This document shows positions 12,845 to 57,100 of a stretch of 64,000 nt of DNA, in pieces. Made by a program: the position numbers and the translations under genes. The notes beneath the pieces were generated by a model. That model was not told the DNA's origin and searched no databases. It saw only the letters and a list, made by a program, of their open reading frames with translations. Source of the DNA: Tubulanus polymorphus (taxonomy: Eukaryota; Animalia; Nemertea); assembly GCF_964204645.1 (NCBI RefSeq), contig NC_134028.1, positions 8,122,001 to 8,186,000 of the forward strand. Reading direction: 5' to 3'. Position 1 is the first letter of the stretch, and every line of letters starts with the position of its first letter.

Positions 12845-14393
<1,549 letters not shown>

Positions 14394-14624
14394 TCACACG
14401 AAATTAACAACTTTTTCATCCAATAAGTTTTTTTCCGAAATTCAATTATCCGCTAGAACAGGTTTTGCCTGTTTACGCCCGCAACCGAGAACTCCAGTTA
14501 CCTACTAGATAGTCTATATGCAAATATACCCAATCGAGTGATAAAAACAATACCAAATATTTTTTGCCATTGAAAGTTTCGTAAAATGATTTTTTATGTT
14601 CAAACCGACCAAAATCCAGATGCA

Positions 14625-14906
14625 TCACGTGAATTTTATGCCCTTTTTCGCTAAATCGGTTTTCGCTTCGGCGATTTGTCGACGCAACTCTTCAGCGGCC
14701 TCGGGGCAGTCGTTGAACGTGGCGACGCGATATCCGACGACGGCCAGCGAGTAACACGCGAACGTCATCAGCAGATAGATCGGCAACGCGATGACGATAT
14801 CCGACTGGCGGGGCGTCAGGGAAAACAAATCTGTGGTGACTGCAAGCGTCCATACACCGATAAACACAGTCGTAACGATTATCCACTGAACCAGTTTTGT
14901 CGGCAT
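14625..14906 (-). CDS. DPM3: Dolichol-phosphate mannosyltransferase subunit 3
   Basis: 93 aa with two TM helices and YRVATFNDCPEAAEELRRQIAEAKTDLAKKG. A splice acceptor just upstream (~14918) implies a 5' UTR intron. Confidence 0.95.
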   Translation of the reverse strand: MPTKLVQWIIVTTVFIGVWTLAVTTDLFSLTPRQSDIVIALPIYLLMTFACYSLAVVGYRVATFNDCPEAAEELRRQIAEAKTDLAKKGIKFT

Positions 14907-27456: not shown

Positions 27457-29379
27457 TCATGAAAAGTCAATTGGGTGTAAGATTTCTTTTAGCATTTTTT
27501 TCAAACCGAACGACGGCAACATGGAAGCGCCAGATTCGTAGTAATCGATCAGCCATTTGAGTTGCATGAGCAACCTGTCCGTATAGACCTGACTCTTCGA
27601 TAGACCATCGACGATTTTGTCCAGAGCGAGCCCGACCCAGCTGTTGGATTTATGCGCCGAGTTCCATTCATCCTTGTGTTCGCCGAAACATTTGGCGCCA
27701 TGGATATCGCACTCACAGATTGCGCGTGAACACGGATTCTTGACCGGATCATCGTCTGTGTGTAAAGAAACCAAACCCCAATTCGATCAGTCAAGTTTTA
27801 ACGAGATAAGGCCTTTTTAATTACTTGGAGTGCACAGATTCGCCTGCAAGAATTCTACAAAAATCATGAAGTTAATAGAAAAGAATTTCTTTTTTTTAGT
27901 CCTACTTTTTGTTTTCACCAAAATTTTTCAAAATTCTTTTGTTATGTTCGCCTTGATTTTCAATGTAGTAACTTGAGAAAGTTATGTTCATCTTAATTTT
28001 CAACCTCCTGATTTGCAAAAAAAGTTTATTTCTTTCATCACTTCCATCATTTGAATCAAATTCACAATTTTCACTCCTTTTTCTTTTCTTTTCTGCAGTC
28101 CCTCCGAGGTTTTATGCGGAAAGTACTCAAATGATGAGAAATTCTTACTTTCATTTTTTTGCCGTTCCTTTTCATTTTAAGACGCCTATTACAAAACAAT
28201 ATTCTAAAAAACTTTCGATTTTTTCCTTTGTCCTCCATCCGTTCTCCAAGTAGATAAAAACGGCCTCATATACAAATATTTACATAACTGCTAATCTTAA
28301 AAACGAATCACGCGTTTCGATCATTCAGTCCACACGATTGACGAGGACTTACTTACGAGTGGTTCGATCAGATAAACAATTGAGCAGTTGCGCATTTTCG
28401 TGTCAAGTTAGAATTCACAACAACAAAAATCGATTTTCATTTTTAGCTTTCATAACGAATGAATTTTACTTCGGATTTCACATTTGGAGTATTTCAGTGT
28501 TCCCTATAATTAGCTTTGAATTCGATAAATGTGTCATTTTTTCACTGCCTTGTCATGAATTTCATGCGTGTGCCTGTCCAAGAGCGATAGTTTGGTGAAA
28601 GGTTGTGTGCATGTGTGTGCGTGTGTGATTTCCATGGGTGCCAGGGCCATGCTTTATAGTTACAAGTTCATTTAATTTCTCCTCGTATCCATCGACTTAT
28701 ATTACACTACCATATTATTATCTGTAATTTTCTAATGTAATTTAATTCGTAAATAAAGAATAATAATAATAAATAATGATAATAATAAAAGAGTGATCTT
28801 TATTTCTACTCACGGCAGGTTAAGTTACCGTCGGAGGACGATCCCCACGCGTACGCGATGAGATAGATGTTCAAAACCCCGGTATTGGACTTGCATTTAT
28901 CTTCCGTCAAATCATCATAACACACGTCGTGCAAAAAGCAGCATCTTTAGGAATAGATTAGATCAAAGCTTAGGCTAAAAAGAATTGATACCTTGTCTCT
29001 CATTTCTACTGTGCTTAAAAGTTGACCCGGCCGGCCTATTCATTTACTTTTTTTCTGAAATCAATTTTATATAACAGAACCGGCGGCTATTGAAATAAAC
29101 TGATTACGAATTTACTTGCACTTTAGAAAATGACCAGGCCGATCAAGAGCGAAAGGTATAATTTTTTGCCTTCATTAATTTTTTGACACGCAGATGAGTA
29201 AAGATAGTTTCATTTCAAAACTCACGCGTCGATTCGGTCGACAGGAGTACCATCGCCACCAAATCCGCACCAACCTCCATAGCTGGCAAAATCTCGGGGA
29301 GGTCGGCCAGTTTTCAACGTAATCATCTTAGCGAACTGATCCAATCTGCGTTTCGTTAGCGATAAGGCATCCGTCGAAT
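27457..29379 (-). CDS. Secreted phospholipase A2 (group I/II-like fold); 5' signal-peptide exon(s) unresolved (~29990-30330)
   Basis: Exon ~29379-29226 has the Ca loop YGGWCGFGGDGTPVDRID. Exon ~28944-28814 has the catalytic His-Asp motif CCFLHDVCY. Exon ~27755-27457 has ICECD (catalytic Asp) and a C-terminal extension. The KR before RLDQFAKMI suggests a propeptide cleavage site. Confidence 0.88.
28550..28790 (+). mobile_element. 3'-terminal fragment of the same LINE family as 57126-60245
   Basis: Matches the reverse complement of ~57130-57330 (gatttc.atggg..ccagggccatg...ccatcgactt...gtaatttaattcgt.aataaagaataataat) and ends in a (TAA)n tail. Confidence 0.8.
28985..29135. repeat. Interspersed repeat; second copy at ~43140-43305
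   Basis: Shared AAAAGTTGACCCGGCCGGCC...CCGGC.GCTAT.GAAAT.AACTGATTAC blocks. Confidence 0.7.
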
Positions 29380-31673: not shown

Positions 31674-34323
31674 ATGTTGCATGCGCTTACTTGTCGCGAA
31701 AGCGGGTTAGCTTTACCCGAGACGATAAGCCGTGAACAGCGCTCTAGCAGAGCTCAAATGATGGAATTGAGCAAGTATCGCGACTTCGAAGTAAGGCATA
31801 GAGGTTCCGTCGTTTCGTTGGATCTTGACGCAGTCGAGAGTAGATTGTAAGTTATCTTCTCAGCTTGAACATGTATATTTCTCGGCCTTATTTGAGTTAA
31901 AAAAAATTCTTTGAAAAAGATAAAATACATTATGAAATAGAACTTTGAACTCAAAAATTAAAAAGAATTTTTATATAGGTATGTTCTGCCCTTGCCAAAC
32001 AAGCTCGAGTTTTCAAGATAAACCACTTTTTGCAATTTTTTTTTTTTTACAGTTTATTGTCAGGCTCTAGCGATGGTGCTTTCGCTATATACGATTTACA
32101 CCAAGGACACGACACTCCTGCATACACGTACAAACCGATATGTGGTCTGAGCAAATATCAACGATTTATTCATAAGAATAGCATCAGTACCGTCCAGTGG
32201 TATCCGCTAGATACGGGCATGTTCACTACCACTGGCATGGATGGAGTGCTGAAAATCTGGGATACAAATGAAATGCGGGTAAGTGTATTGAAATCACTCC
32301 GCTAGTCGAAATGGGACTCTCTTCCTATACAATTCTCCAGAGAGAATATCTTCTTGAGATACGAGATCCTTCATTGTCAGTATCATCCGTGTTTGTTACC
32401 ATGTCAAGTTTGGTATCCCAGTTGGCTTTTGATTTGAATTTCTAATTAAAAAAACGCATGAAAGAATTGGATAAAAAATCTTCTAATTGTGAAATTAGTA
32501 ATTTCTTATTTTAAATCCTGTTCAGTTGTACCCTGAGGATATATACCAGAATATTACCAAATCGAGCCCTGCTCAGCTACTATGGCCATATATGCCACTA
32601 ACAAAAATGTATAGTCGAAAATGTTTCCTTATGCTTGTAGTTAGGCCTAACTCTAGACATTTCGACTGTACTCCAGTCATCTTCAGTAAATACTCTTCAT
32701 TATTATTGTGGGATTCTTTATAGATATAGCGTTTTATCAACTCTTGCTGTATTTCTTGAAAATGTTGTTCTCTATTTTTAGCCAGCCGATCAATATTCAT
32801 TCACCGGTGTGATTTATTGTCACGCAATGTCCGCGGCCAGTATGACGCATACTCTGCTAGCCGTCGCTACGGCGAAATGTCATTGCGTTCTCGTCGATTT
32901 GAGAACGGGCGCGAAAACCCACACGCTTCGTGGCCATAAAGATGCCGTTATGTCTTGCCAGTGGTCGCCGAAAGATGAATTTATCCTTGCTACTGGAGGG
33001 TAAGTTGGCAAATATCTATCTTGTATTTGGTAAAGTAAAATTGATAACTAATTTCAACGCGTTGGGTACAGTCACCACTTGGCTTGGTCCACAGTTGTTA
33101 CAGCATGTGGGCTCTGTGACTGCACCCTCACTTATTGTTGTTGATTCGGCATTTATATTGTTCATTTCATTGTTATCTTTAAGTGAAAAATAAATTATGT
33201 TATAATTATATTGACTCTGATGATCAAGTCACTCTATACAGATCACCTATACTGTATCTACCTGTGACTTTTGTCTTTTGGTTCACAGATCTGATTCTAA
33301 GCTAATGTTGTGGGATGTTAGGAGCGCTGCTGGTAGTTTGATGGTTTTCGATCAGTACAATGGTGATACGACTGCTAATCCAGAATCAGGTAGGATGTGA
33401 CCCACAGAAACTTCGTCGGTCACATAAGGAAACAAAAATGACAGCGCATATGACCACCTGCAATTAAGATAATTCTAATGGAAACTGTTTCATAATGCAC
33501 TGTATACAGTTGAACCTCGATTCTGAGACGAAACCAGTTTATTACGATGATTTCCAGCATATACCAGCAAGATATTTATATCAATCAAGCTTTGGATAAT
33601 ACGAAACCCTGTTTAACGACAATTTCATTAATTGCTCCTCAAGATTGGTATTAATGAGGTTCCGACGCAATAATTATTCTTTATCAGCAAAACTTTCGTT
33701 GCTTGTCGTTTGGATTTTCCTGCCGTTTTATCACCGAATGTGTTTTGATTGGTCCTTCAAAATTCGTCTCTGGATCCACCCCGATCGGGTTTCATAATTA
33801 CAACTCATTATTGATGATTTGTTTTTCAGTGAACACCGCTCATAACGGTCTCATTAACGGCATGAGATTCCTGAGCAACGGTCTGCATTTAGTGTCGGTC
33901 GGTACGGACGATCACATGCGACTGTGGAACGTTGCCACCGGCAAAAACATGCTAGTCAACTACGGCAAACTGGAAAACTTCAGCCTGAAAAACATTCAAA
34001 TCGCCTGCAGTTTCAACACGAATCCCGAACTGGTATACGTGCCCGTTAATTCGGACGTTTGCGTTTACGACATTTTCAACGGCGATCTGTTGGTCACGCT
34101 GCGCGGCCATTACAACACGGTGAATTGTACGGTTTTCAATCCGGATACGAACGACGTCTATTCGGGCGCCAACGATCGCAATATTCTACTGTTCTCGGGC
34201 AACGTCGAAACCGAATCGGCTTTCTGTAAACATCTGGACGGCGACGATCGAACGGAGAATAATACGTCGGCTACTATCCCAGCGGCAGCCGCCGATGCGT
34301 GGAGTAGCGACGAGGATAGTTAG
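31674..34323 (+). CDS. ERCC8: DNA excision repair protein ERCC-8 (Cockayne syndrome A, WD40); 5 coding exons
   Basis: LDLDAVESR.LLSGSSDG, VQWYPLDTGMFTT, HTLRGH...WSPKDEFILATG, LWDVRSA, AHNGLING, LVNYGKL, LRGHYNTVN, and C-terminal DAWSSDED. Confidence 0.95.
32652..32690 (-). ncRNA. Minimal hammerhead-ribozyme-like motif (Penelope-associated type), intronic
   Basis: Minus strand UUUA-CUGAAGA-U-GACUG-gagua-CAGUC-GAAA-UGUC-UAGA: core boxes, a 5-bp stem II and a 4-bp stem I. Confidence 0.5.
33506..33668. mobile_element. Tigger/pogo-type MITE remnant
   Basis: TA-CAGTTGAACCTCG left end and GAGGTTCCGAC right end. Confidence 0.45.
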
Positions 34324-35690
34324 ACCGGGAATTTAGAACAGAATTTCGTTATTTAATTAAAGAAAACTCCCCCAGCTAGGGCCTGCGAGCTGAGTAATTC
34401 AAACGTTTGGACAGCATTTCGGCGAACAACTGAATTGTTTAATATATTGCATTTACTGTACATGTTGTATAGAATTTGTGTGAAATAATGTAAAGTATAA
34501 ATAAAGTGAATAATAAGAACTTTCTAGTTCTCAAGACAACGAGCCACGCTTTCAGTGAATGTTTAAAGAATCCAAAGAAGCTGGGGTTGCGTAAGACCAC
34601 TCTTGATTTAGATTTAATGCCACTTTTGGACGAAAGTCACGGTTGTACAACTGGGCCAAGAGTTTTTGAGGTTGGCCGGCAAGATTCCCGGTGCCAGGTC
34701 CTTCTACCGCGACACTGTCCCCTAGCTCCCAGCTACACGGCGCCAGAAGTCACGGTCAGGAGCTCGGTCTCTCCTCATTCGAGACCTGGAAGGCTTCGCG
34801 CTGAAGCCGTGTCCATTATGTTGACGGTCATTTTTTTCGGTCACGGCAACCTCTCCCACGCTCGCATCTCGATGGATCGCGGGCGGACCGTTCTAAACAT
34901 CGTTATTCTCGGAGTTCGCGTAGCGTTCGTCTTCTCCAGTAACAAGACGCAGTTTCGACCGGTTCTCTCGGTCCCAGCCCTCTCAGGGGAGGGGCAAGGA
35001 CACCACAGGCGCATCCAAGAGTTAAGTCTACATCGTCGGGTTTTCGGGGCAGGAGGAACAAGTCAACATCTCGGCGCCCGTCACCGCAGTTTTTTCGTGT
35101 TGTAAGACCTATGGCGGCTAAAGATGTCCCACCGACCGTGGGGCTTAACGGTGGTTTTAGGTTTTTAAGATACCTGTTGAATCACCCGTAAGGGCCGCTT
35201 TCATCTCTACTTTGTCGCGTTAGACGAAGCAAATAGCTGTAAATCTGCTCAGTTATGGCGGTACGGCGCTGAGGTGCACGCGTCATCCACACGCGAGGGC
35301 CAGGCATAAGTCTTCGGTCCGGGTGACAGGCTCGTCATTTAACCTCCGGCTTCGTTTACAGGTGTAGAATCAGAATTCACAGCAGCGCGATGGGAAATAT
35401 AGCTTTGCTCACACAGGGTGTCGACGTACCTTCACTATCGATCTCTTTGCCCAGTTAGGGCTTTAAAGCAATCACGAGACTGAACCCAAAACTTTCCCAA
35501 GGCATATTCAACACATTAATGTTGACTCATCTATTATACAGGGCATGATACAAATACATATATACGGTACTGTAATTTATTTTCACATCTGAATAATGCT
35601 GACCGTAAAACGATGATGACGATAAGGTTTTTGAGGAGCCCGAAGGAGCTGTACAAGCTGTACGAGGATTAGTACAAATAAGTAACTTTA

Positions 35691-38600
35691 CTATAGTTTT
35701 TCCAACTTTTTATAGGCAGTTGTTTTGTTGAGCAACCGATACTGAATCGAGCGAATTTTAGTGAATATTTTGTGTCTGGCGAAAAACAGCACTCCCAGTA
35801 AAACTATAACGATGCAGATGATTAGAAAGCTTTTGCCGAAGAACGCGCTGTACCAGTGCGGAGCTTCCGGAATAGTAAACGTTTGAAAGGCTTGAAGTTC
35901 TTTTGCAGGTCTGTTGCATACATTTTTAATCGGCGGTCTATATTCATTTGAAATCTTGTAATTCCACGCTCCGTCTTTGATCTGAAGAAGAAAAACGAAA
36001 AGGAAGTTAATATTAGCATATGTTAAAACCGTTTCCATAAGTGAAGTCGATATCCAAATTTGACCCGTCCCATGTCGTTGGCAGTGGAGTGATAACAAGT
36101 ACTTTTTTAACCCCCGAGTTTGTGAGCCCTCCATTCTCAGTCAGTGTGCTCTACACATCCTATTAAATCTATTTAATGCAATTAGGGCATATTAAACGAA
36201 TTCCTTTAAAAAAGACACAATGGTCATTGATCTTACGATGGGAACGCCTTGATCGGTACAGTACTGGTTTTGAGCGGTTGTTAGGATATGACGTTGCAAT
36301 AACACGTCATATCCTCCATCCCACGTATCATCTCGGTTCAATATGTCGGTTATGGCGTTTAAATCGCCCATAACTTTACCCCAATCAGTGCCGACCATTC
36401 TGAAATAGATACGAGAAAAATACGTAGATACGAGCCTTTTTGCAGTAAAATTTGAAAAATAAACAGGGAAAGGTAAATTAATAGAAAAAGGAAAAGACTT
36501 ATGCGTACCTCATAATTTTAAGATAACCCCAAACGGAAACTAAAGCGTTTATGGGATTCGGACTCGTTTGACAAAAAGACATAGGCAGCTTGGGAAAATA
36601 GTTGACCATACTGAAACACATTTCATCGGTAGTCGAAAAACCGCCCTGAATAAATGAATGAAAATGTTTAAAACACCAACTATTACAGAAATACACGTAC
36701 GTGTATTCCACAGGGTTGAAATCGAACCGCGTGTGTATTTGAACTATAGACTTACAACTGTTACTCGATTTCTATCCTCGGTATTATAGTAGCATTCATT
36801 CGCCAGTACATCTCCCTAAACAGAAAATATTTTCATACAGAAAACAATGGTAGTTCGGGTCACGGACTGATAAATTCTCGTGCAGAGAGCACCGGAAGTA
36901 TAGGTCAAATTTACTTGATTTAAACCTAAGGCGAATTTATCACGTCAAATTTGATTTGATTTTAAGTAAAATCGTATTTATCCTGGCAAAGTCAAATTTG
37001 ATTTGGTCTAATCTTTGAATTTAACACGGTATCAAATTCAAATCGATTCATCAAATTATCAAATCACCTCCGGAGATGATTTGATACGACTTGAAGATGG
37101 TGGACTGATCACACATTTTTATTTTTAGAAAAACTGATATAAATGGTCAAAACTTAAAGAGAAACTGAAACTCATTCATAGGGAATAAAAATCCAAAAAC
37201 CGGGGCAGTATTTTCTAGTCAGCCGTTTTGAACAAGTCGTCTAATTCATCCTGTCAAAAAATTCAAATCTGATTTGACGAGATAAATTCGCCGCTAGTTT
37301 CGTACCATCTTCACTGTTACAAATTCCTTTCGCGGGCGCCAATTTTGACTGTTGAAGTCATACGTCATATCGTTCAGTATCCACGGCAATTCTTTGCCAT
37401 TCCTGAAGTGTCGAAGGCGCATTCCCCTTGCAGCCGTGTGTGAATGTGGACCGGTAGAAAATACTTTGATTTCGTTGACGCCGTTTCCCAATTTTTCGAA
37501 AGCCTGTAATTTACAACATTAAGAAATTTGAAAGTCTCTGTGAAAATAGCTTAACCCGCGAAAGCAGAAAATCGCCGGTCGACCGCTCGTGCTAGCTTGT
37601 GCGCTGAACTCAAACGGTACCGCGCGCGTTTCTATGAAGATATGTTTGCGATTGCAGTATCAACCAAATTTCCAGATAAATCTCTATCTTCAGAGAAAAG
37701 TTCTAAATTGTATCACAAATCAGGAAAGAGTTACAGCCAATGACGTAAAGTTACTTATTCCTTGAGGCGCGATATTTTTTTTAAATTAGAAAAATGAAAC
37801 AAGCACCCATTACAAAATAGAAGAAAGTCACCTTTTTAATGACGATTCATGATTTTGTATCAAAAGGAAGACGGACGACAATAAATCGTGATAAAGGTTT
37901 TATTTTAAAACATGTTAAAACCTGTCCAACCACGCGGGACCGCCTCAAAGTGGTGCCTGGTTTCTTGAATCAACTTTCAGCTGGAAAGGCCGAACATTTC
38001 AAAACGTCTTGTGTGCTGCCGTGAGGAGATCGTGACTTACCGCTTTCAAACAATTATCCGAGCAAAACGCGCGCACAAGGAAACGCTTCTGTCGCGGTGG
38101 AATCAGGAGAGAAAACGGTAAGAAATGCATCGAACCAACCATCATATTACCAGCATCGTACTTTCTTAATTTTGACGTGTAACTGAGGCGAATAGTGGAA
38201 TCGTCAATTATACCTGAAATTTATTCATACTAAATCAAAAATCAAAACATTAAACGTAGACGGGATATCATGTGAACAAATGTCATGTGTATAATGTTAA
38301 AACCAGGACCCAGTCCGATCACAAAACTATATCTGTACTTCGATTTCCGATGTCAAGATCAAACCCCTTTTTTCACTCCCGGTAGGTGTGGTGGGTTTGT
38401 AAGGGAGACCAAATCAAACGAAATCTACCAATCAAATAGATGACAGTGTCAATCCCTATTTTTAAGATTTGAAAAATAACTCGGGATCCAGTTCCGTTGA
38501 AATTAGTTCATTTTCAATTAGTTGACTTCGAGCCAAATCTTAACTCAGAACTGGGTCTGATCTTATACATTTCTGTCAACTCTTACGTGCAAACGTTCGC

Positions 38601-41600
38601 AATAAATTTTCCCGAAAGCAGTTATTTCGTCAAATCGTTTTTCTAAAATTATTTTCGACAACTTTAATACATATAGTGTCGATAGTTACCGCTTTGTTCC
38701 TCTGGGTTGTTATAATGTGTTTGCATCATATAATACACCGAATCTGCAGGACCTCCAAGGGAGACTCCGGCTTCTTGGGGATAAGTTACAGACTGTAATA
38801 GACGAACACAACTGTAACAATGACACACTTCGTTACGAATAGTAATTTTCGATGAATGAAAAAATCACAAAGTCCGTTAAAATGCCGTCCTTTTTAATGC
38901 CATTGCTCGCTTAACGCCAGCATTTTTCAGTGTAATAAATTTGCCCAATCTTACTGAGATTCAGCTGAAATACCATTCTTTGTATAAACCCAAATTTTTC
39001 ATTGGTCCCAACAGTGGCATTATAAAGGACTCCATGTGTTCATGCTAATTCTGGTGTTTTGGTGTCTGTTTTGGTGACTTGAAGCCCGAACCTAGCATTT
39101 ACATCAAGAATGCACCCCTTTGACAAGTACCCCTTTGAAAAGTATACCCCTCCGGGTCCTCTTTTCTTTGCTACAATTCAACAATACAGAAGTACCTTCT
39201 TTAACTTTTTTTTCCTATGTAACAGCGATGACTATTTTTTGTATTGTACTTTTAAGCCGAAAATAAAATCATATGATAATAATAACAACTTACACGTGAT
39301 CCTTGAGCGAACATAGCCACACCTTCGAAACACTTTTCTCGGTTGCGTATGCCAAAACAGTCACCGCGAATGAGATCACGATCGGATAACGCACCTTTCG
39401 CACATGCCCACAATACCATATGATGGATATATTTCTCATTTCCTGGCTTCATTACTTGTTCTATCTAAATCCAAACGAAAAAATACTCCATAAACTTGTA
39501 TATGTATATGCATAATATATTTTCAATCTCACATTGATTTTTCCGCAATGTCACTTCGGGGTTCAAGAATTATAAAAAGGCTTCATTGTTACAACCAGAT
39601 ACTACGTACTCGATTGAAAGCTGGGCCAAGGAAAGCTGAGCCAAGGGGCGGATCCACTGGTCAATTTTGAATGACTTGTCATATTGTAAAAGGGCACTTT
39701 GATGTCCACGAAGGCAATATTAAGCACATTTCTACACTGGAAATGCACCAATGATCTTTGTTGACAAGGGCACTGAAAAGATTTGATGGACTTGTACACG
39801 TCCCCCTGCATCCACCTCTGTTCTGATGGCATAGGCCCACATGTAGATGGAAACATTTGCTAAATCCATATAATCGAAGTCTTAATTCGAAAATAAACAA
39901 ATTTGCAAAACACTGTCGTCACTCAAATCTCGATTAAGCGACTGAAATCCCACCTTTATGATGTGTTTTTTTCCAGCTGGTAAATCGATTTTCACGAATC
40001 TGCATAAATAGGTGGTCTTTTGTGCCGGTAACCTTATCTAAAAGTAACAGAATGCAACGATACACATGACCAGTCGAAGACTCGGAAACAAGAAAACTAG
40101 CGTCAAGTATAATCATACATTTGGTGACGTGATATCCAACGTTTTGACGTCACTTCCAGGTGGGAAACTCGGCTGCGGATCATCAAGCAGGTAATAAGAC
40201 ATTACACCGCGATTCGCACCTCCGTGATAGAGAGCCTTCGTCACGTCAACTGGATCAACATCACCGCCATATGCATAGATCATTCTTTGAGTTCCGGGCT
40301 GAAATTATACATTTATATATTTCATAAGTTATTTGTTTAGTCGAATAAAACCAGAATGTACATTCTTTTACAGGCCCGTGCCGATTGTTCTTTAGGGACA
40401 GTCTTATTTCAAGACGATGGGCACTTTTTTAAATGAGTACTTCTTATTGAAAAAGGACAGATCATAAATGCGAAGTACCCGGGTACCTGAATAAATCATT
40501 TGAGAATGGATTATTTTTCATTTTCCAGATAAAAAAACTTGAAAATTGTATCAAAATATCGAAAAAGTCCTGACCCAAACTTTTTGACACTCACTTTTTT
40601 TATTTCTGCCCGAATATTTTAGGGGTTACCCCACCCTCCCCCTCGGCACGGGCCTGTTTGCTACATCAAAACAAGTCTTTACCTGTATAGGGATATCACC
40701 TTCGTCATCACAAGTATCCAAATCTCTGGAGAACGTCAATTGCGTAAATCCGTTTTCTTCTTTGCCGTTCAGTAATTTCCAGTTGGCCACTTTATCTAGT
40801 TTCGGTATAGAATTACCAACGCCGTGTGTATCCTTGAAGAAAGATCATATTTCATTTCACATCTGATGTATTTATCAGGGGCATGGTTAGAATTACTCTA
40901 TTTTGTAGTTTTTCCAGCTCCTATTTAGAACTTACGTAAATTTGCGCTTTTCCGTGGTGAACCCAACCGATCACGATATCCGCACCTTTCATGCCACCAT
41001 TTCTGGACAACCCGAAACCGACATATCCCGTCGTTTTAACCGTTACGCGAAACGTAATCGAACCGTTGTTGGACCCCGGCTGACCGCGGTTATATTTCCA
41101 TTCCAGGAGATACTTTTTGTCCGGGTCGACGTAAACTCGCCGCGGGAAGCTCGCGTCAACGTGACTATGTATTTTTGTAGGCGTCGATTCAGACGATCCC
41201 GCTTTACCGGAAGGTGATTTATCTTTTGGGATACTAGGTTTAGAAACTGTTTCTCCTTTTTTAGATACGGATGGTTGAGTTCTTTTGACGGTGACCTCCT
41301 GCAATTAAATCAATGAAAATTGTCTAAACACTGGTCGTTTTACAATTTGCTCTAAGATGATCTTAATATGGCCTTACATATGTAAGATAGAAAAAATCTT
41401 AATCGGAATAATTCTTTACAATTCGCATTCACCGTTTTCATTTGAAATATGGATACTCACGTTATTTATATACCGTACCTTTTGACTACATGTATTTTTG
41501 TTTTCGATCGGTTTATATTCTTTTTTCGGCTCGTACTTCCACGGCTTGTACGCCGACTAAAAATGTTAATATAACATTGTTATATTATCATTCAGTACAC

Positions 41601-44600
41601 ATTAATATCAAACAATACACATGAAATAGATATCCTCTCTCCCGACTATAAATTGAAAACAAATCATCCCGAACGACACATACGCAGCCCCAGAGAGGTT
41701 ACATGGCGAAAAAAAAATATTTTTCACCGCGTCACCTCCGGGGCTCCATGGACACAACATGAAATTACAAAATCTATATTCCTGTTTTCATTTTACCTTT
41801 TCACGCTAAAATGTTCAAGCTTTCAAAAGTTTTAGTATACACAATAGAATATGTGGAACCCCTCCCAAAAGAGACTTACAGATGGTTGTAAATCGGAGGT
41901 GAAGCAGTTTTTTCTCTGCAACGGATCTGCTGCCAGAGTCAATTCCTGAAATCGTTTATTAGCGATTGGATCCTTCCAAGTTGACGGCGCTTCTAAAAAC
42001 TCGCGAACGTCCTTTCTGAAAACAAAATATATTGATATACAATGTTAGGCTATTCAATCGCCACAGCGAAATCATTTGCGTGAAGGTGCGTGTATTACCC
42101 CTTTGTATCCCAGATGAAATTCGTAACTTTCGGTGCGTCGAGCATTGTTGTGCAAAAACCGAATGGAACTTTCGGGTAGTAACTAATGAATGATAAACAC
42201 ATTTCCGACGTCGAAGCGTAGTCAGCCTGCAATATATAGACGTCATCAAATAACGGTTTTAATACAATTTTCAACGACGTCATAATATAATTAATGGAAA
42301 AATGTTTTACTAGAATTTTCAACTGAACCCCATGGATCCAGTATGAGGGTACCATGGCTTCTTGTGAATTGCAATTATTCACATCACATGATTAGATTTC
42401 CTTTTATTAACGTATTCTTTATTAAGTTTCTTTTTGCGAGATCACCGAAAACCCTTAAAAATCATAAGATCGTAAATATTTTCTTCGGACGCTTGCGAAA
42501 GGTCCTAGGCAAAACATTTCGATAAACTATGATAATAATGATTTATTTTTCATTAAACTAAATCACAAAATAAGGTTAATTTCTCAATTTGGAATTACTG
42601 AGATGTTAGTTTGACGATGATAGTGATCAGATCATAATATAAACCATGAGCAAAAAAGATGAAATTAATACTGACGAACGTAACATTAGATCTGTCGGTT
42701 GTGTTATACACGCAATCGATTGTCAGCCAATCTCCCTACAAACGAAAGAAGATATAATGTCAAAACATGTTTCCTGTGTCTGTCTTTCTCGACCATGAAT
42801 ACGCATATCGAAATTCATGTCAACTGGTCTGACTCATCCGAGGATATTAATTACCGATTTTACGGCGACCACTTTTTTGACCGGTCGAAATGTTTGAAAG
42901 TTGAAATCATACGTCTCGTCATTCATCACCCAAGGCAGTTCAACGCCGTTCCGGAAGTGACGTGTACGCATCGCCCGAGCTGCCAAATGTGCGTGGTGCA
43001 TCACGCTGAATAAATTCAGTTGCTTTTTTTCATCGCCTTTGATCGTGCTTATCATCTGTTATATACAATAATTTGGTAGATATTTTATTTCGAATGTCTT
43101 GGTTGTAACTTTCGCCATAACTTACATAAGGCTGAACAAATTGATATTTTGTTTCTCCTTTCTGCTAAGTATAAAAGTTGACCCGGCCGGCCGCCTATTT
43201 ATCATGTACATTTAAAAAAAGTCATGATCAAGCTAACCATGACAGACCCGGCAGCTATAGAAATGAACTGATTACAAATTTGATTGCAGTTTATAAAAGT
43301 GAAACAATGAACAATTAGGAGAAACAATGTATCATTTTATTCTAGCCGTACATGATATTTTGGTGTTTAGCTTACCAGTTACTCTTATTGCAGTAATAAA
43401 AGAAAACTGGGTAAGCCTGAATTTCAAAATTGTATTTATAAAAATCCTGGCTGGATTTTATTATGAACTTAAACATAGTCCATGATATTATGAACGAATA
43501 TCAACACATAATCTATTTGGTTCAGCTTGAACGAAAGATGAATCTATGAATTGAACCGTATGTACTTACTGCGTTAACACACTCCGGAGTGCAATGACCG
43601 CGGTATAAAAACCGGTCCTGGCGAGGTGGTATGACAATCGGAATGATATCCTTGTCATTGAACACAGTCTCCGCTCCAACCAACAATATACCAGCATCAT
43701 GAGGTCGTAGATTTGGCGTATGCGTCAATCGCAGATTATACTTGTTAACAACTGCCCAAAAAGGTAATAATGCATTATTGCTATGGACAGAATAAATAGG
43801 AATCCGACTTGCGGTTCTGATAGTTGTTGGTTACGAAACTATAGACAGGGTATAAGGTATTGGTATTTCAAAATGAAAATCAAACCGGTTCCAATGACCC
43901 GTCTCCCAGTCGGAGAATCTTAAGATTTGTCTTAACTTAGTTCGATTTAGGCTATGAGACCTAGGTGTAAAGTATCGTCTGATCTAAATCAATCGTACGT
44001 ACCGTGTTCGCTTTCATATTCAGGATTATCAAAGTGTAACTCAAGGAGATAATGACTGGTTCCAGAAATTGGCATTCCAACTTCTTTCGGGTAGACAGTT
44101 TCCTACAAAGAATCATATGGGTTTCATCATAAAAAAAGAACTTGATGTCGATTCATAATTAAAAGAAAGGTTTGTTTTTCGGTTGGACATACCGAAGATC
44201 CGACACCGATCGTTGCAACGGGCACCTGACAAAGTGACCGCGCTACGCCAAAAATGCCGCCACCTTTACAGTCGCCCTGTATTTGCAAGTATGCGTCGCT
44301 GTAGTTGTCCTTTTTACACTCGTAAAGAACTGTGTGGTGTAGAAATCGCCCGTCGACATCTATTCGTGCCTGAAACAGTACGGTACATCAATCAATCATT
44401 ACTGAATTATTCTTGTTCTCTGAAGATCCAAAAACACCAGAGCTAAGAAGATGTTAGGAAATACCCCTTCCGCCACAAAGTGGTGAAAAACTGGAACTCG
44501 CTTACGGATGAGATAGTGAATGCCCCAGGTCGAGAACTACTAATTTGGACTTCCCGAAATTCACGGAAATTGTTAAATTTTTCCCTTTACCAAAGTGCTG

Positions 44601-46785
44601 ACAATACCTGGCAACTTAAGTGAAACACCGAGGCAGTCAAATGATAGGCCAAAAGGCCTTCTTCAATGACTGCGATTACCATATTCAAACGGATTCTGAT
44701 GAGATATTTCAATATGCATTCCGAACGTACAACAGCGATTAACTGACAAATACACGTAGATACGATGATATCATTTATACCTTGATTATGTGGTTCTTTC
44801 CGGAAACCACGACTTTATGAAACGAACAATGATAAAATGTTCTCGTCTTTGGAATTTTAATCTGTAATTTAAAGAAAAAAACAATATTGGTCGATTATAA
44901 CTAACCGGTAATCCGTTTATCACATACAGTAGACTATCATTATTTTTCACACTTATCACACAACGGAATATATCATAAGATAGCGTTCATTAATTGGCAA
45001 AACCCACCGTTGATTAATTACTAATTCATTCTAGACGGACTGTTTCGGAGTTCGTCTAAACTCCATCATCAGAGGAACAAAACACATCTTAATTCCATTG
45101 ATGATGGAGTTTAGATAAACTCCGAAACAGTCAGACTAGAATAAGTAATGATAATAGTCATCAACTGTGCGTTTTGCTATTTAACTCTAAATACTGAGAT
45201 TAATATCGGTCTAACAGTCGTAGCTCACATTTTTTACTGTCAGATCCTTTGTCTTCATCGCTGGTTCAGGGATAAAGGAAGGCTGTTGGTCGTCGTCGAA
45301 GTAGACGATATTCGATCCTCGGTTGCGCGTTCCGTGATATAAAACACTTTTCACACCGCCGACCGGGTCTTTTTCGTTGTAAGAATATATGACCTTCATC
45401 GCTCCCGTCTATCCGCGCAGAAATAGAGGTGAACATTTCACTCGTTATACAGAAAGAAGATTTATTTGAGTTTTTACTGGCAGAAATCATTCGAAAATTA
45501 TTGGAGACAAAATTTCGAAATTCATAGTAATAATAGTCGGCGACGGCATAATAAACAAACACGTTTTTACAATTGTCAAAGAATGAAATTTTCGGTAAAA
45601 GAACTGACCGTTAACTTTGGAATAATATCAGTAATCTAAAAAATCTGGACAATTCAAAATAGTTTTGATGGATTATATAAAATAACAACTTATTCATGAC
45701 GTAATGTGTATCTTCTAATAAAACGGTTATCATAGTTAGATCAATCTGCAATAACGTTCATTACATAATTTAAAAATGTGCATATTGTGTACTGGAGGAT
45801 TTACTGGAGAGCGTGTTTGATCTTTATTTTTTCGTTCTTTGATTTTTCGTTTCTCTTTTCTGTTCTTCACTTTTTTATCACAAGCCCCTCCAAGTCTAAT
45901 TGTATTTTGTATTTTGCATCTGTTGTAGACTATATTTGAAAATCAAGTATTCAATTCAAATGTATGATGTAGAATAAAAAACGGGGCGGGTTCTATAGGC
46001 TGGGTACTACGATAACCCCATTATCTATAAAACCGGCACCAGGAGAACAGTAAACCACAATTCAATATACACTGACGTGGCATTGCACCTAGCCTGCGGG
46101 AGACCGGACCACTGCGATAAGCACGTACCTCGATTTTGATATCCTGATCGTCACAAGTGTCCAATTGGCGGTAGAAGGTGAGTTGCGTGAAACCATTTTC
46201 CTCCTTTCCTCCCTTCAGGATCCAGTTCGTTTTGTCGTCGAGAACAGGAATTTCATTGCCGACTCCGTGCATATCCTGAAGATAAGACCTTTGAAAGTTA
46301 GACACATGTTAGACACATTAATTCCTTTTATGTGCCCCGGTACTAGTATATACGAATTATACAAAATTGATTCGCAGATCAGATGTACTGAAACAAAAAC
46401 TAATCGATGACAAATGAAACGCAAATTTATGGGTACTTACGTGGAGATAGGCTCTCCCGTCGTGAACCCAACCGATCACGATATCCGCACCTTTCATGCC
46501 ACCATTTCTGGACAACCCGAAACCGACATATCCCGTCGTTTTAACCGTTACGCGAAACGTAACTTGACCGTTGTCATTTGCCGCGCCGTGTTCGTATTTC
46601 CATTCGAGCAGGTATCTCTTCTCCGGGTCCAGGAAATATCGTCTCGGGAACTCTGTCGACGGTCCATTCGTCTGCACCATAGGACTCCGATCCACAGCTA
46701 AGGTTTGCGAGTTTTTGGCATTTTCGGCCGCTCGCAGCGAAAATAGTAGAATTTCAAATAAAGTTAAACGGAATAGGTATTTCAT
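35691..46785 (-). CDS. DBH-like monooxygenase (MOXD1 family) with two tandem DOMON + Cu-monooxygenase modules; ~24 exons, ~1,300 aa; N-terminal signal peptide and C-terminal TM helix
   Basis: Module 1 (46785-41479): signal MKYLFRLTLFEILLFSLRA, DOMON GYVGFGLSRNGGMKGADIVIGWV, FLHHTVLYEC, LELHFDNP, MHHAHLAAR, SEMCL. Module 2 (41298-35691): same DOMON motif, IHHMVLWAC, QTHYNNP, PHSHTAARG, DEMCF, and TM FLIICIVIVLLGVLFFA. The introns I traced are GT-AG and phase-compatible. Confidence 0.9.
36930..37292. mobile_element. MITE (Harbinger-like) in a monooxygenase intron
   Basis: TIR GGCGAATTTATC.CGTCAAAT / ATTTGACGAGATAAATTCGCC, internal TCAAATTTGA repeats; TSD unclear. Confidence 0.65.
39642..39820. 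mobile_element. GCGGATCC-ended MITE-like repeat, related to 12323-12600
   Basis: Ends AAGGGGCGGATCCA / TGCATCCACCTCTG; shared internal blocks. Confidence 0.5.
40371..40656. mobile_element. hAT-like MITE
   Basis: Perfect 14-bp TIR CAGGCCCGTGCCGA / TCGGCACGGGCCTG; no clear TSD. Confidence 0.6.
44420..44680 (+). mobile_element. 3' fragment of a CR1-type LINE
   Basis: Translates to DVRKYPFRHKVVKNWNSLTDEIVNAP (CR1 RT C-terminus), followed by a GCAGTCA...TGACTGC stem-loop typical of CR1 3' ends. Confidence 0.65.
45028..45142. ncRNA. Inverted pair of minimal hammerhead-ribozyme-like motifs
   Basis: ~50-bp inverted repeat (45028-45077 / 45093-45142). Each arm reads (C/U)UGAUGA-U-GGAGUU-loop-AACUCC-GAAAC-A-GUC. 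Confidence 0.55.
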
Positions 46786-48113
46786 GATACGTGTTGCGTC
46801 GGTCTAATGACGCAGCTTAAACAACCGGTTCTAAAATCGAGTATTCCGCAACAGGACAGAGTTATAAAAGCTGGCGTTTTGTGAACCGCGGGAGTCCTAT
46901 TACTGCTTCTTCAACCAAGGAGCGCGTATCTGTTCGCGCGCCATTGTTCATTCGGTCGGTCAGCATCGCATCCCGCGTCATGGCGCTGTTTCGTTTACAT
47001 CGCGCATCATGCATTATGTTTGATTATGCGTGATCACGGACTGCATCGCGGTGAACTTTAAAAATTGAATATAAATGGTCAGCAGGGGACTCTGCACGCC
47101 CGTACTACTGGTCTATACCCCGATGTGCTAAATAGCGACTATGATCGAATCATCAAACTGCAAATTGTATTACATTGGTACATTTTCACGCAAATGCATA
47201 CATATGTAATATGACGGATGGATGGTTTGAAATCTGAACCAGCCGCCAACATAACACATGTTATATCTTTTAGAAAATTGTCACAACATCATTGTAATCA
47301 AAAATTCAACTAATCGCCCAAAACAAATCTGGCATTTTGCCCAAATCAGCCATAAAAATATGAATTTCGAATTGTTGAGTATCTCTATGTATATACTTGT
47401 TTCTAAATCTTTCCACAGTTGTTTACGCCTATGCAAATAATCTAATTAGACATCCTTTTTTTTGGCAGGCCTCCGATTCTTGTACTTCATGTTTAGAATC
47501 GAGGGAGCTGTTCAGAATGTGCCAGGAGGGAAATGTAAGTGGTGTGATAAGGACACCTGGTGCCCCCATGGGCGCGGGCAGCCGTTAGTATCGAAGCTCC
47601 ATTTTGAATTTTTGGACGGCGTCCGGCGTGTGTCTGTTGCCTTGAAACTGTTCTTCGTTGATCAGGGTTTGTCATCCCAGACGGAACCCACAATTGGTTG
47701 ACTGTACTAAGTATAAATGATGGCCGAGACTTTTGGCCTTTTTTGATTATAGAATTTGGATTGTCCCTGTTATTTATTTGGTTGGTAAATTTAGTTTGAT
47801 TTTTTGGTTAAGTGTCCCTTACAGACCCACCACACCTGCCGGGAGCGAAACAGGAGACATTTGGCCTTTAATGAGTATTTCTGTGGTCAGAGTTATCCTC
47901 TGTTGTTGGTTGAGAGCCAAGCAAGCCCTGGCAAGCGATGACATTGTTAGTTACTTAGTTTTTGTCGGTATTTAGGATTACTGCTCGAGCGTTATCAAAG
48001 TTCAAGGTCGCGTGGACCCAGAAGTCTAATTAAATGAAAACAACAAAATTTTTGAAAATTTTGCGGGATTTATTCGCGAGAAACTTTAATTTGTTCGACG
48101 ACAAAAATCTTTC

Positions 48114-54100: not shown

Positions 54101-57100
54101 CTGTTTCTGAAACTGACAGAGTTGTTCCAGCCGGAGCATTTTTCGAATCCACCGATTGCAGCGAAGCGACAGTTTTTCCTTTGAATATGACGTGTGGTGC
54201 CAGCATTTGCCCTGAGGCATTACCACACGCCATAACAGTAATCGTCTCCCGGTTTCCGCTAATCCGTGACTGAACGTACTTGCTTCCTTTTCTGAAAAAA
54301 CCAAGTAGGCCTATTCATTAAGGTATCAGCAGAGAATTGTAAAATTAAACTCTGTTTCTAGATGATATATTAACAATAAGAATGTAGTTGTAATAAGATC
54401 AGTGTAATTGGCCAGTTCGTTACATCAAAAATCATCAATTTGCCCTACCTTGCTACGATTTTCCCTGGTACGTGGGTCAACTGAACCCCGGTTTCGTCAA
54501 GGTTCCAGATGTACATTGGCTGAATACCAGCCAATGCACTCTGGATGGCCTTGAAATAGCTGCCTACTTTTTTCACGTTCATGCACTGGTGCCTAACAGC
54601 AGCAGTGCCCTCTGGCTTTCGCAACGATACGCTTGGGTGTCTGGCTTTAAAGCCAGCCCAAAACTGGTCACTAGGAACAACCTACAGATATAAATACCGG
54701 TATATATATATAGGTTTTTTTAACTTATAGGCCTACATACCAAGCTGAGAATTAACAGATCACAAGTCAATAGACATACCTCCTGGAATGGTTTGCCGCG
54801 TTTGAGTGCCAAATCACCAGCATACCTCAGAAAATTACTTTTCGAAAACCCATACCCCAAATCAGCTCGGTTCTTTGCAAAGTCTGCAAGTTTTGTCTCA
54901 TCCACCATGCTGAGATGGGTCGGCCTGCCTAATTTTGCTGTTGCATGACAGATTTTTCCACTAACTCTATCATGCAGAGTTGATTTTGGTACAGAAAACT
55001 CACTGGCTGCTCTCAATATCGAAGAGCCAGATTTCACTGATTCAATCGCGTTGGTCATTTGGTCTTCTGACCATTTGCAATAAACCTTTGGCATCCTGGA
55101 AATAAAACCAAATTTTAAATTAATGCTTACAGAGAAAGGGCACTGTCCTCGGGCCGATAAAACAGCTTAGGGTTAAGACCTTCAATTTGTGGTAGTTTTT
55201 CAATTTGTTTTAATTTTATTAGGCTGCTACAGTCATTAGCCACAAGGTCCAACTAATTATAGGCCTAAGCTTAAATAAATTCAATTTTAATCTAAAAAAG
55301 TTGTTTGTTGTTTTGAATTAGAAATAGAATCGTTCATTTCTAGGAAAAACAGCTGTGTAAACATACGCAATAACAATTATACATTATTTCGGAACTTCCG
55401 AAATTACGTGGAGGAGCCGTGAAAGCTGGGTATGGGATTTCCGAAATTATGTGTAGGCGTTTGAGTTTTTGAAAATCGACGTTTATGTAACAATGAGCGT
55501 ATTCCGATAGTAAATGAATGTTTATAAACAAACTATCGGCTTCCTAGAACTTCGCGGCAGTGTTTACGTATCGGCTGCCACGAAATGCCGTAAAAGCGGG
55601 TCGAATCAATAGTGTACTTACGTGACCGACTTTAGCGATTTGCCGCGCTGATTTCGTGTGCCAGAAAGAAATGCGTACTACGTCATCAAAATGGCGCGGA
55701 TTCCCGTGGAATTCCCAGGAAATACCAACCTACTCCCCCTTTTTCAAATTTAAGCTAGTCCAAATAGGTATTCCCTCTCCGCGACCGCGGAGAGGCCGTA
55801 GAAGAAAACTTCCGAACTTATGTGGTCTTCCGAAATTACAGTGAGTTACCCTATTAGATTTAGCTCTTAAGAATCAAATTGAATCGGTAACTCGCGCAGG
55901 GATCAATTTTGAAGGACTTGTCACATTCCAAAGGGGTACTTAGATGTCCACAAATCAGTATTAGGCGCATATCTACACTGAAAATGCACCTACTATCTCT
56001 GATGACAAAATGCGAAAGCCAAAGGGCACTCAAAAAAAAAAATTTGATTTGATGGATTTGTACAAGTCTCATAAGTCTCCATGTGTGGAACTGGCCCCAT
56101 ATTATTATTTGCTTGTCCACCTTTTGAGAAGTAGCCCTTCGTACACATTTTTGCTCATTCTTACATTAGTCTGATCGATAATTAATTGTTGTTTTTTTAT
56201 TAATGAGCGTAAATTGGGACTGAACCGTATCGACTGTGTTTGTAGATATGATGAATCTTTTGCCGGAATCGATGGATCACACGAAAGATGGCATCGCAAA
56301 ACTATGCGAGCAGTGGTGGGCGTCGGAGATCGAAGGTCGCGAGGAACTGATCTCGCAAACGATGCTTTATCTATTGCAGAAAGGTTCCGATCCTAAAGTG
56401 AAGGTTGGTGCTGATATTAATCAAATTGAACATTTGGCATTGAAATGTGCTGACTCTAGCCTGACTTCTGCTAATAAATCCTGCATCAGCAATTGAAAAA
56501 TCCGTTGCGATTCTTACGATTTCAGATAGTTCATATCAAGCGTATATGGAATGTGCATATGGCTTTAGGGAAATTCAATTTTGAAAACAAAAGTTTTAAG
56601 CAAATGAAAGATTTGATTCTACGCTGTTGCATTCCAACGTTTGTCAAGTGTGAAGAAGTAAGTAAAAAAAGTACTTGAGACTCCTCAGCATCTAGTTCAC
56701 ACAACTAGAAATATTTACGTACATTGTATTTGTACTAACTACAAAGTTCCCTAAATCCGTTACTGACTACCTAATCAACTTCCTAGTCAACCGTATTTCT
56801 GTGATAGGCCTATCTACCTTACGTTCAGGATGGTAGTGCCACACACTCTAAAAATTTCACATTCACTAATACTGTATTACACTCAATATATTTCAGGGCC
56901 GAAAATTTTTGACTTTCGTGTTCAGTCTTAATTTGAATTTTATGGATGAACTACATGAAACGATCAAAAGTCAATTACCGTGTTGCCCGCGAACTTTCCT
57001 CGAATGTTACGCCAAAATCTATTTCAACGCGTGGAAGGCGGCTAGTTCTGACTCATTTCGAGAGGTCTGTTGCTATTCTTCTTCTCATTTTAAAGCTTTT

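What the first reader, a model, noticed from the sequence alone, without database searches (positions are those of the whole stretch)
35691..46785. Single-chain 'double' DBH-like monooxygenase: two complete catalytic modules fused in one membrane-anchored protein
Seen: module 1 has the only ATG and signal peptide. Its last exon (41556-41479, SAYKPWKYEPKKEYKPIENKNTCSQK) is homologous to the start of module 2's terminal exon (IKDGAWNYKISNEYRPPIKNVC), but it ends at a phase-0 GT donor rather than continuing into a TM helix. After a 180-bp intron with no signal-peptide exon, an AG acceptor opens a Ser/Lys/Pro-rich linker (EVTVKRTQPSVSKKG...) that runs into the second DOMON. Each half has 12 exons at equivalent positions and keeps all copper ligands (HH, H, HxH, Met). 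Known: DBH/MOXD1/TBH normally carry one DOMON plus one Cu type II monooxygenase unit, and human DBH crystallises as a dimer with open and closed active sites. Inference: tandem duplication followed by fusion produced a covalent pseudo-heterodimer, possibly catalysing two sequential hydroxylations.
Basis: partly seen in the sequence, partly recalled or inferred. Interest (0 to 1): 0.85.

Follow-up and report, generated by a model that had tools for sequence, protein, structure and literature searches.

The report
Double copper monooxygenase in ribbon worm
This ribbon-worm locus holds two intact copies of a dopamine-hydroxylase-like copper enzyme back to back, likely spliced into one membrane-anchored protein; similar doubled proteins sit undescribed in databases for crabs, shrimps and oysters, where they likely arose separately.

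Summary
The anatomy is real: 24 GT-AG exons on the minus strand give an open 1,295-residue frame with two DOMON-CuH-CuM units. The units are 44% identical, and each keeps all six copper ligands and 12 matched cysteines. Unit 1 has the only signal-like start, unit 2 the only membrane helix. A RefSeq model of Tubulanus polymorphus uses the same 41479->41298 join but omits exons 1-7. The single transcript is therefore likely (about 0.7) but remains a prediction.

The architecture is not unique: 12 of 16 long database hits have two to four units. Some are gene-model chimeras that keep an internal signal peptide. Six decapod proteins and some bivalve junctions are clean like this one, and a tree suggests separate origins.

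The pseudo-dimer and sequential-hydroxylation ideas are untested; DBH's inter-chain cysteines are absent. The best reading is two tethered MOXD1-like enzymes sharing one signal peptide and one anchor, possibly cleaved apart. Extra finding: a 101-base tract identical between exons 1 and 13, likely gene conversion. Verdict: a variant of a known family, recurrent and apparently undescribed; moderate interest.

The parts
46441..46785 (-). Exon 1: ATG, signal-like peptide, first half of DOMON 1
46129..46275 (-). Exon 2: DOMON 1 (Cys156)
45229..45408 (-). Exon 3: end of DOMON 1; weakest acceptor in the gene (leave-one-out score -2.2)
44781..44861 (-). Exon 4: start of CuH domain 1
44193..44369 (-). 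Exon 5: CuH ligands H262, H263
44003..44102 (-). Exon 6: CuH ligand H333
43570..43751 (-). Exon 7: start of CuM domain 1
42855..43055 (-). Exon 8: CuM ligands H425, H427; the RefSeq model XP_074647748.1 starts here (Met405)
42676..42735 (-). Exon 9: CuM domain 1
42099..42226 (-). Exon 10: CuM ligand M500
41880..42015 (-). Exon 11: predicted helical region after CuM (position of DBH's dimerization domain)
   Evidence: low confidence
41479..41556 (-). Exon 12: shortened counterpart of the terminal exon; keeps terminal Cys602 and ends at a phase-0 donor
41299..41478 (-). Intron 12 (180 nt): no AATAAA/ATTAAA, no membrane-helix frame; second in-frame donor after 41461; read-through stop 41418-41416
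41391..41417 (-). Possible relic of unit 2's former signal-peptide sequence (20 of 27 nt match to 46782-46756); weak
   Evidence: 33 to 77 of 1000 shuffles reach it; 1 of 55 control windows
40936..41298 (-). Exon 13: Ser/Lys/Pro-rich linker (Lys-Arg at residues 610-611) and first half of DOMON 2
40957..41057 (-). 101-nt tract identical to exon 1 46562-46462 (likely gene conversion)
46462..46562 (-). Partner copy of the 101-nt identical tract, in exon 1
40683..40832 (-). Exon 14: DOMON 2 (Cys767)
40119..40298 (-). Exon 15: end of DOMON 2
39954..40037 (-). Exon 16: start of CuH domain 2
39294..39464 (-). Exon 17: CuH ligands H878, H879
38690..38792 (-). Exon 18: CuH ligand H947
38041..38213 (-). 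Exon 19: start of CuM domain 2
37306..37503 (-). Exon 20: CuM ligands H1033, H1035
36756..36815 (-). Exon 21: CuM domain 2
36509..36645 (-). Exon 22: CuM ligand M1108
36237..36399 (-). Exon 23: predicted helical region of unit 2
35691..35981 (-). Exon 24: terminal Cys1221, membrane helix 1244-1269, 26-residue tail with two Tyr-x-x-hydrophobic motifs, stop
35576..35581 (-). First AATAAA after the stop; likely polyadenylation signal

Best explanation
The locus holds two complete MOXD1-like copper monooxygenase units in one open 24-exon frame, and is likely one gene whose product is predicted to be a type I membrane protein of the secretory pathway, with two separately folding enzymes on a flexible tether. 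Shown: exon structure, domains, copper ligands, cysteines, one N-terminal signal-like stretch and one C-terminal helix. Inferred: two old neighbouring paralogs fused when unit 1's last exon was cut short at a splice donor just after its final cysteine and unit 2 lost its start and signal peptide. Unit 2 would now borrow unit 1's entry signal and unit 1 would borrow unit 2's anchor. Each unit would hydroxylate its own small substrate with O2 and ascorbate as DBH does. The residues beside the CuM histidines differ between units, which suggests different substrates. The linker may be cut at its Lys-Arg pair (about 1 in 4), as in the snail multi-PHM precursor.
For: Strong in-frame donor and acceptor at the join (8 of 648; 1 of 504). 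No hydrophobic core upstream of DOMON 2 (max 11-residue hydropathy -0.35), against 72 of 76 single-unit representatives at 1.8 or more. No ATG with both a signal-like core and a fitting in-frame donor among 131 ATGs from 47500 to 41299, other than exon 1's. No poly(A) hexamer or membrane frame in intron 12. RefSeq XP_074647748.1 equals exons 8-24 at 891 of 891 residues, join included. Both units are intact although synonymous sites are saturated (24 of 77 four-fold sites identical). Unit 1 departs from 7 of 68 conserved columns, unit 2 from 6, paralogs from 4-6. Unit 2's model matches human DBH (TM 0.82 by target) and the linker is predicted disordered. Clean-junction doubles and quadruples occur in six decapod proteins and at bivalve junctions. 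Lobster RefSeq isoforms X1 and X2 differ only at their junction, and four Scylla olivacea entries span it. Precedent in the sister PHM branch: a Lymnaea zymogen with four PHM domains, processed to single enzymes (PMC6669573, passage).
Against: The join is a splice prediction. The RefSeq model omits exons 1-7, and no protein containing exon 1 appeared among the 6 hits (213-2000 aa searched), so the full 24-exon chain has no outside support. The exon-3 acceptor scores -2.2. The signal peptide is the weakest of 18 compared and has an acidic residue in its core. Gene finders do fuse tandem MOXD1 genes wrongly: 4 of the 12 multi-unit hits have only a hydrophobic junction, 2 more are mixed, and the same species' P0002 keeps an internal hydrophobic tail. 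All 11 skips from exon k to exon k+13 keep frame, so single-unit chimeras are possible. Unit 1 has local oddities: a 3-residue loss before the His-His pair and Gly to Asp before the Met loop. A Lys-Arg or Arg-Arg pair arises in 18% of shuffled linkers and is present in only 4 of 17 other clean junctions.
Confidence: 0.68

Rival explanations
1. The fused protein exists and its two units pack as an intramolecular DBH-type pseudo-dimer through their helical domains, alternating open and closed or passing one substrate through two hydroxylations.
For: Both units keep the region in the position of DBH's dimerization domain, predicted helical. The 50-residue linker is long. DBH is an asymmetric dimer with a proposed flip-flop (PMC4846438, parts 1-3 read). 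A review says MOXD1 oligomerizes (PMC8067471, passage).
Against: No cysteines match DBH's inter-chain C528/C530 (12 per unit, all accounted for by the intra-chain pattern). The two helical regions are among the least similar parts (12 of 38 identical). Clean doubles elsewhere have only about 5-25 residues between the last cysteine and the next DOMON in most cases, and shrimp proteins have four units, which fits beads on a string better.
Confidence: 0.2
2. Two separate tandem genes or transcripts: unit 1 ends by reading through intron 12 as a soluble enzyme, and unit 2 is started by an unseen first exon. The fusion would then be a gene-model artefact or a minor read-through.
For: Such chimeric models are common in this family. 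Read-through gives a stop after 20 residues. RefSeq did not build the full chain.
Against: Only 180 nt separate the units, with no poly(A) hexamer (first AATAAA at 40604), no signal-peptide exon for unit 2 and no anchor for unit 1. True chimeras keep the internal signal or tail; this junction keeps neither. Both splice sites are strong.
Confidence: 0.14
3. One gene, but mainly spliced into single-unit proteins: exon k of unit 1 joins exon k+13 of unit 2, giving chimeric 675-687-residue enzymes with the shared signal peptide and anchor.
For: 11 of 11 such skips keep frame. The 101-nt homogenised tract makes the exon 1 and exon 13 DOMON halves partly interchangeable.
Against: Every exon of both units, including exons 12 and 13 and their splice sites, is intact. 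Frame-keeping follows automatically from equal phases.
Confidence: 0.1
4. Unit 1 is decaying or the 5' part is non-coding, and the product is the RefSeq-like truncated protein or a dead gene.
For: RefSeq starts at Met405. Unit 1 has the longest Tubulanus branch (0.82 and 0.70) and local motif changes.
Against: 605 open codons with 6 of 6 ligands and 12 of 12 cysteines; conserved-column loss equals that of its paralogs. A start at Met405 would give half a CuM domain and no signal peptide.
Confidence: 0.08

Closest known systems
MOXD1 / DBH-like monooxygenase protein 1 (PF03351 + PF01082 + PF03712)
   Same: Each unit has DOMON, CuH and CuM domains, six copper ligands, the intra-chain cysteine set and a C-terminal anchor on the last unit. 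The nearest named relatives carry this name.
   Different: Two full units in one frame. A true membrane helix with a 26-residue tail rather than a terminal hydrophobic end. Same-species paralogs instead have two DOMONs before one catalytic core.
Human dopamine beta-hydroxylase (PDB 4ZEL)
   Same: Fold (TM 0.82 to chain A), ligands, and intra-chain disulfide positions (PMC4846438).
   Different: About 28% identity, no inter-chain cysteines, a C-terminal anchor, and an unknown substrate. DBH is a homodimer of separate chains.
Decapod and bivalve multi-unit DBH-like database proteins (Penaeus, Homarus, Scylla, Eriocheir, Procambarus; Ostrea, Pinctada)
   Same: Two to four DOMON-CuH-CuM units joined without an internal signal peptide.
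   Different: They form separate clades from the Tubulanus units. The decapod proteins show no C-terminal hydrophobic anchor. All are database entries; I found no paper on them.
Lymnaea multi-PHM PAM precursor
   Same: Several copper type II monooxygenase cores in one precursor (PMC6669573, passage). A snail protein with repeated cores and no DOMON came up as P0040.
   Different: PHM branch, no DOMON, and it includes a PAL lyase. Its processing is reported; here cleavage is only a guess from one Lys-Arg pair.

Membership tests
Copper type II ascorbate-dependent monooxygenase, DBH/MOXD1/TBH group | DOMON + Cu2_monooxygen + Cu2_monoox_C in order | tested here: met
   Exon-wise Pfam hits for all three families in both units (13 to 49 bits per fragment; 4 of 18 fragments had weak hits below the cut-off and 6 had none). 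P0001 has 1 DOMON, 1 CuH and 2 CuM matches. A profile of single-unit relatives scores the units 478 and 512 bits.
Copper type II ascorbate-dependent monooxygenase, DBH/MOXD1/TBH group | Three His for CuH; two His and Met for CuM | tested here: met
   6 of 6 in both units; ligands as defined in PMC4846438.
Copper type II ascorbate-dependent monooxygenase, DBH/MOXD1/TBH group | Six intra-chain disulfides, including DOMON to C-terminal segment | tested here: met
   12 cysteines paired between units. Ten align with DBH cysteines; the last two are assigned by position. Bonds themselves are inferred.
Copper type II ascorbate-dependent monooxygenase, DBH/MOXD1/TBH group | DBH fold | tested here: met
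   Unit 2 model against 4zel_A: E 1.2e-47, TM 0.82. Unit 1 was modelled only from residue 405 on.
Copper type II ascorbate-dependent monooxygenase, DBH/MOXD1/TBH group | Ascorbate- and O2-dependent hydroxylase activity | not testable with these tools
   Needs expression and assay.
Copper type II ascorbate-dependent monooxygenase, DBH/MOXD1/TBH group | One catalytic unit per chain (textbook architecture) | tested here: not met
   Two units in one predicted frame. This is the variant feature.
Dopamine beta-hydroxylase proper | Inter-chain disulfides C528/C530 in the dimerization domain | tested here: not met
   No spare cysteines in either unit.
MOXD1 subfamily | Groups with MOXD1 rather than DBH/TBH | tested here: inconclusive
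   Best named hits are MOXD1-like (up to 423 bits, against 246 for DBH; different searches). The trees had no DBH or TBH row.
PAM / Lymnaea-type multi-enzyme precursor | PAL lyase domain | tested here: not met
   No further Pfam family in P0001; the whole model is accounted for by two units, linker and anchor.
PAM / Lymnaea-type multi-enzyme precursor | Convertase site between enzymes | tested here: inconclusive
   Lys-Arg at 610-611, but 18% by chance and 4 of 17 in other clean junctions.
Gene-model chimera of tandem genes | Internal signal peptide or anchor kept between units | tested here: not met
   Junction hydropathy -0.35, against 1.9-4.2 in chimera-like models.

The most novel reading that the evidence does not exclude
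Single-chain multi-unit MOXD1-like enzymes are a real, undescribed class that arose at least three times (ribbon worm, decapods, bivalves). The ribbon-worm protein joins two deeply diverged active sites with different pockets in one membrane-anchored chain. It is a natural tethered pair in which each site can be switched off alone, so cooperation between sites (the DBH flip-flop idea) and two-step hydroxylation become directly testable.
Probability: 0.45. Interest if true: 0.62.

Novelty: new variant of a known kind. Interest (0 to 1): 0.42.

Why it matters
MOXD1-type enzymes have no known substrate (PMC8067471, passage), and whether the two sites of a DBH dimer cooperate is open (PMC4846438). 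A natural chain with two different sites would let one be disabled while the other is watched. The wider point is that multi-unit versions seem to have arisen repeatedly and are hidden among look-alike annotation errors; junction hydrophobicity separates the two classes. The claim stays moderate because the join is unverified in RNA, the architecture is already present in public gene models, and no substrate is known.

Tried and rejected
RNA evidence: no RNA holder listed. The three runs laid are contigs that cover introns and show no intron-skipping joint at any of the 23 introns, so they say nothing on splicing. Missing cover at about 34500-36750 in one run is no finding.

Complex prediction of unit 2 against residues 405-604 of unit 1: no verdict (score 0.00; alignment not used; unit 1 incomplete). 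The two AlphaFold runs on the 891-aa RefSeq protein (pLDDT 72 and 67, pTM 0.62 and 0.58) give no readable inter-unit packing. The full 1,295-residue chain was not folded.

No whole genome is held, so paralogous loci and their introns could not be read. A hidden upstream DOMON or further unit in the window: 7 weak tblastn hits outside the gene, best E 0.012, rejected. The first signal-peptide scan (threshold 2.2) missed exon 1's own signal and was repeated at 1.6. An ATG frame in intron 12 (41441) has a weak core, a phase-1 donor that does not fit 41298, and ends in a stop. No relic of unit 1's lost membrane tail was found in intron 12 (474 of 1000 shuffles). dN/dS could not be computed because synonymous sites are saturated. 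The careful IQ-TREE run did not finish; the quick tree was used. The sigma-70 scan and NCBIfam do not apply to an animal gene. Three look-ups of earlier findings returned nothing.

Ten literature searches listed no paper on doubled DBH-like proteins; subscription journals are mostly not covered. The primary Lymnaea paper was not seen.
Full report
1. What is in the sequence. Reading 35300-47200 on the minus strand and testing exon coordinates in a script gave 24 exons, all with GT-AG introns, 3,888 nt and 1,295 aa with one stop. Exons 1-12 (605 aa) and 13-24 (690 aa) align at 44% over 588 columns. Phases agree at 11 of 11 equivalent introns and 9 of 11 junctions fall on aligned codons. Pfam finds DOMON, Cu2_monooxygen and Cu2_monoox_C pieces in both halves (12 of 18 fragments hit). 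Both halves keep the six copper ligands and 12 matched cysteines. The one long hydrophobic helix is at 1244-1269.

2. Identity. An exon-13 query found six proteins, all Tubulanus polymorphus. The top one, RefSeq XP_074647748.1, equals exons 8-24 at 891 of 891 residues, including the join, but starts at Met405. Whether RefSeq's join rests on transcripts is unknown here. No hit contained exon 1. DNA contigs cover the junction without differences.

3. Is the join credible? With a matrix from the other 22 introns, 8 of 648 non-exon GT sites score as well as the exon-12 donor, and 1 of 504 AG sites as well as the exon-13 acceptor. A second in-frame donor lies 18 nt further on. Intron 12 has no AATAAA or ATTAAA and no membrane-helix frame. 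Among 131 ATGs from 47500 to 41299, 16 had a hydrophobic core of 1.6 or more; only exon 1's looks like a signal peptide with a fitting donor (judged by eye, no signal-peptide predictor was available). Upstream of DOMON 2 the hydropathy peak is -0.35, whereas 72 of 76 single-unit representatives reach 1.8. A 27-nt stretch of intron 12 resembles the start of exon 1 (20 of 27), perhaps a relic of unit 2's signal peptide. It was noticed by eye and is weak (33-77 of 1000 shuffles).

4. Are both halves alive? Synonymous sites are saturated (24 of 77 four-fold sites identical in exons 2-12), yet neither half has a stop or frameshift. Against 68 columns conserved in 37 non-Tubulanus modules, unit 1 departs at 7, unit 2 at 6 and paralogs at 4-6, while a ligand-less snail module departs at 13. 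The residues just before the CuM His-x-His differ between units (Met-His versus Gly-Pro), which suggests different pockets (inference). AlphaFold on the RefSeq protein gave a confident unit 2, a confident partial CuM of unit 1 and a disordered linker. Unit 2 matches human DBH at TM 0.82.

5. A converted tract. Exons 1 and 13 share 101 identical nt covering 31 degenerate codons, where 77 of 203 such codons match elsewhere. In the reads this stretch forms its own 101-nt contig at depth 63.9, against 28-30 on either side. Two real copies exist, and recent gene conversion is the likely cause.

6. How common is the architecture? A profile of 11 single-unit proteins searched against long proteins returned 16 hits, 12 with two to four units. 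Four have a hydrophobic signal or anchor between units (Trichoplax, Haliotis, Physella, Orchesella cincta) and look like chimeras of tandem genes, as do P0002 and P0008. Two are mixed (Ostrea, Pinctada). Six decapod proteins are clean. Lobster isoforms X1 and X2 differ only at three junction residues; from my knowledge of the RefSeq pipeline this implies read support. Four Scylla olivacea entries without a contig span the junction; that they come from a transcriptome is recalled, not shown. Among the top 150 of 17,401 cluster representatives, 16 have a CuM domain followed by another DOMON, including this gene's own. Twelve of the 16 are clean and 9 have two of every domain; the ranking favours multi-unit proteins, so this is no frequency estimate.

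7. Origin. In a FastTree of 56 modules, the 7 Tubulanus modules (100), the 20 decapod modules (100) and the 8 oyster and pearl-oyster modules (99) form separate clades. There were no DBH or TBH rows; P0004, P0008, P0009, P0010, P0021-P0023 and most isoforms were left out; long branches were flagged. This suggests separate origins. In crabs and shrimps, units group by position across species. In an IQ-TREE quick tree of 25 rows, unit 2 groups with fragments of a paralog on another chromosome (99; fragments fill 28-39% of columns) and unit 1 sits apart. The two units are therefore old paralogs, not a recent self-copy.

8. Mechanism. Most likely (0.68): one precursor enters the ER by unit 1's signal and is anchored by unit 2's helix. 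Two DBH-type cores work on a roughly 50-residue tether, each using O2 and ascorbate by the family's chemistry (PMC4846438). The tail's two Tyr-based motifs may sort it (motif role recalled). Cleavage at Lys-Arg 610-611 is possible, with precedent in a snail four-PHM zymogen (PMC6669573), but such a pair arises in 18% of shuffles. An intramolecular DBH-like dimer is a sub-case at about 0.2: the inter-chain cysteines are missing and other clean fusions have short linkers or four units. Rivals are separate transcripts (0.14), single-unit chimeric splicing (0.10) and a decaying 5' half (0.08).

9. Literature seen. PMC4846438: parts 1-3 of 6 of the text. PMC8067471, PMC6669573 and PMC12064177: passages only (the last lists a DBH-like gene as an oyster blood-cell marker and says nothing on architecture). 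All others: search listings only. No supplements were read. Ten searches listed no description of doubled DBH-like proteins.

10. Verdict. This is a likely real, independently evolved double MOXD1-like enzyme, of a form that recurs in databases and seems undescribed. Interest 0.42.

Noticed in passing
window 46562-46462 and 41057-40957 (-): 101 identical bases between exons 1 and 13 in otherwise saturated paralogs; a separate contig at twice the flanking depth in the reads. Likely recent gene conversion.
   Followed up: yes
database proteins P0027-P0035, P0043, P0047-P0058, P0063: Decapods and oysters carry two- to four-unit DBH-like proteins with clean junctions, conserved by position in crabs and shrimps; apparently undescribed.
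   Followed up: partly
P0002, P0003, P0005, P0006 (same species, other loci): Tubulanus paralogs have two DOMON domains before one catalytic core; both window units resemble the second DOMON. All form one lineage-specific expansion.
   Followed up: partly
window 40929-41057 and 40731-40826: Further contigs about 90% alike at twice the single-copy depth point to another near-identical pair of paralogous exons elsewhere, possibly the P0004 locus.
   Followed up: no
P0040 (Bulinus truncatus): Snail protein with repeated monooxygenase cores and no DOMON; likely a Lymnaea-type multi-PHM precursor.
   Followed up: no
window 31979-34320 (+): WD40-repeat gene ending about 1.4 kb from the monooxygenase stop, tail to tail; resembles ERCC8/CSA by recall.
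   Followed up: no
window 57445-60303 (-): 953-codon open frame with endonuclease and reverse transcriptase domains: an apparently intact LINE-type element.
   Followed up: no
window 54723-55166 (-): Psq-type helix-turn-helix fragment, likely a DNA transposon relic.
   Followed up: no
window 5657-9100 (+): 1,148-codon single open frame with a CSPP1 C-terminal match; unusually long and intron-free for this gene type.
   Followed up: no
window 12848-14954 (-) and 18352-19299 (-): FtsJ-like methyltransferase in two pieces directly behind DPM3, and a single-exon rhodopsin-family receptor.
   Followed up: no
window 27460-27786 (-), 25989-26285 (+), 1068-1361 (-): Weak phospholipase A2 fragment (E 0.007), POT-family transporter exon, AAA ATPase exon.
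   Followed up: no
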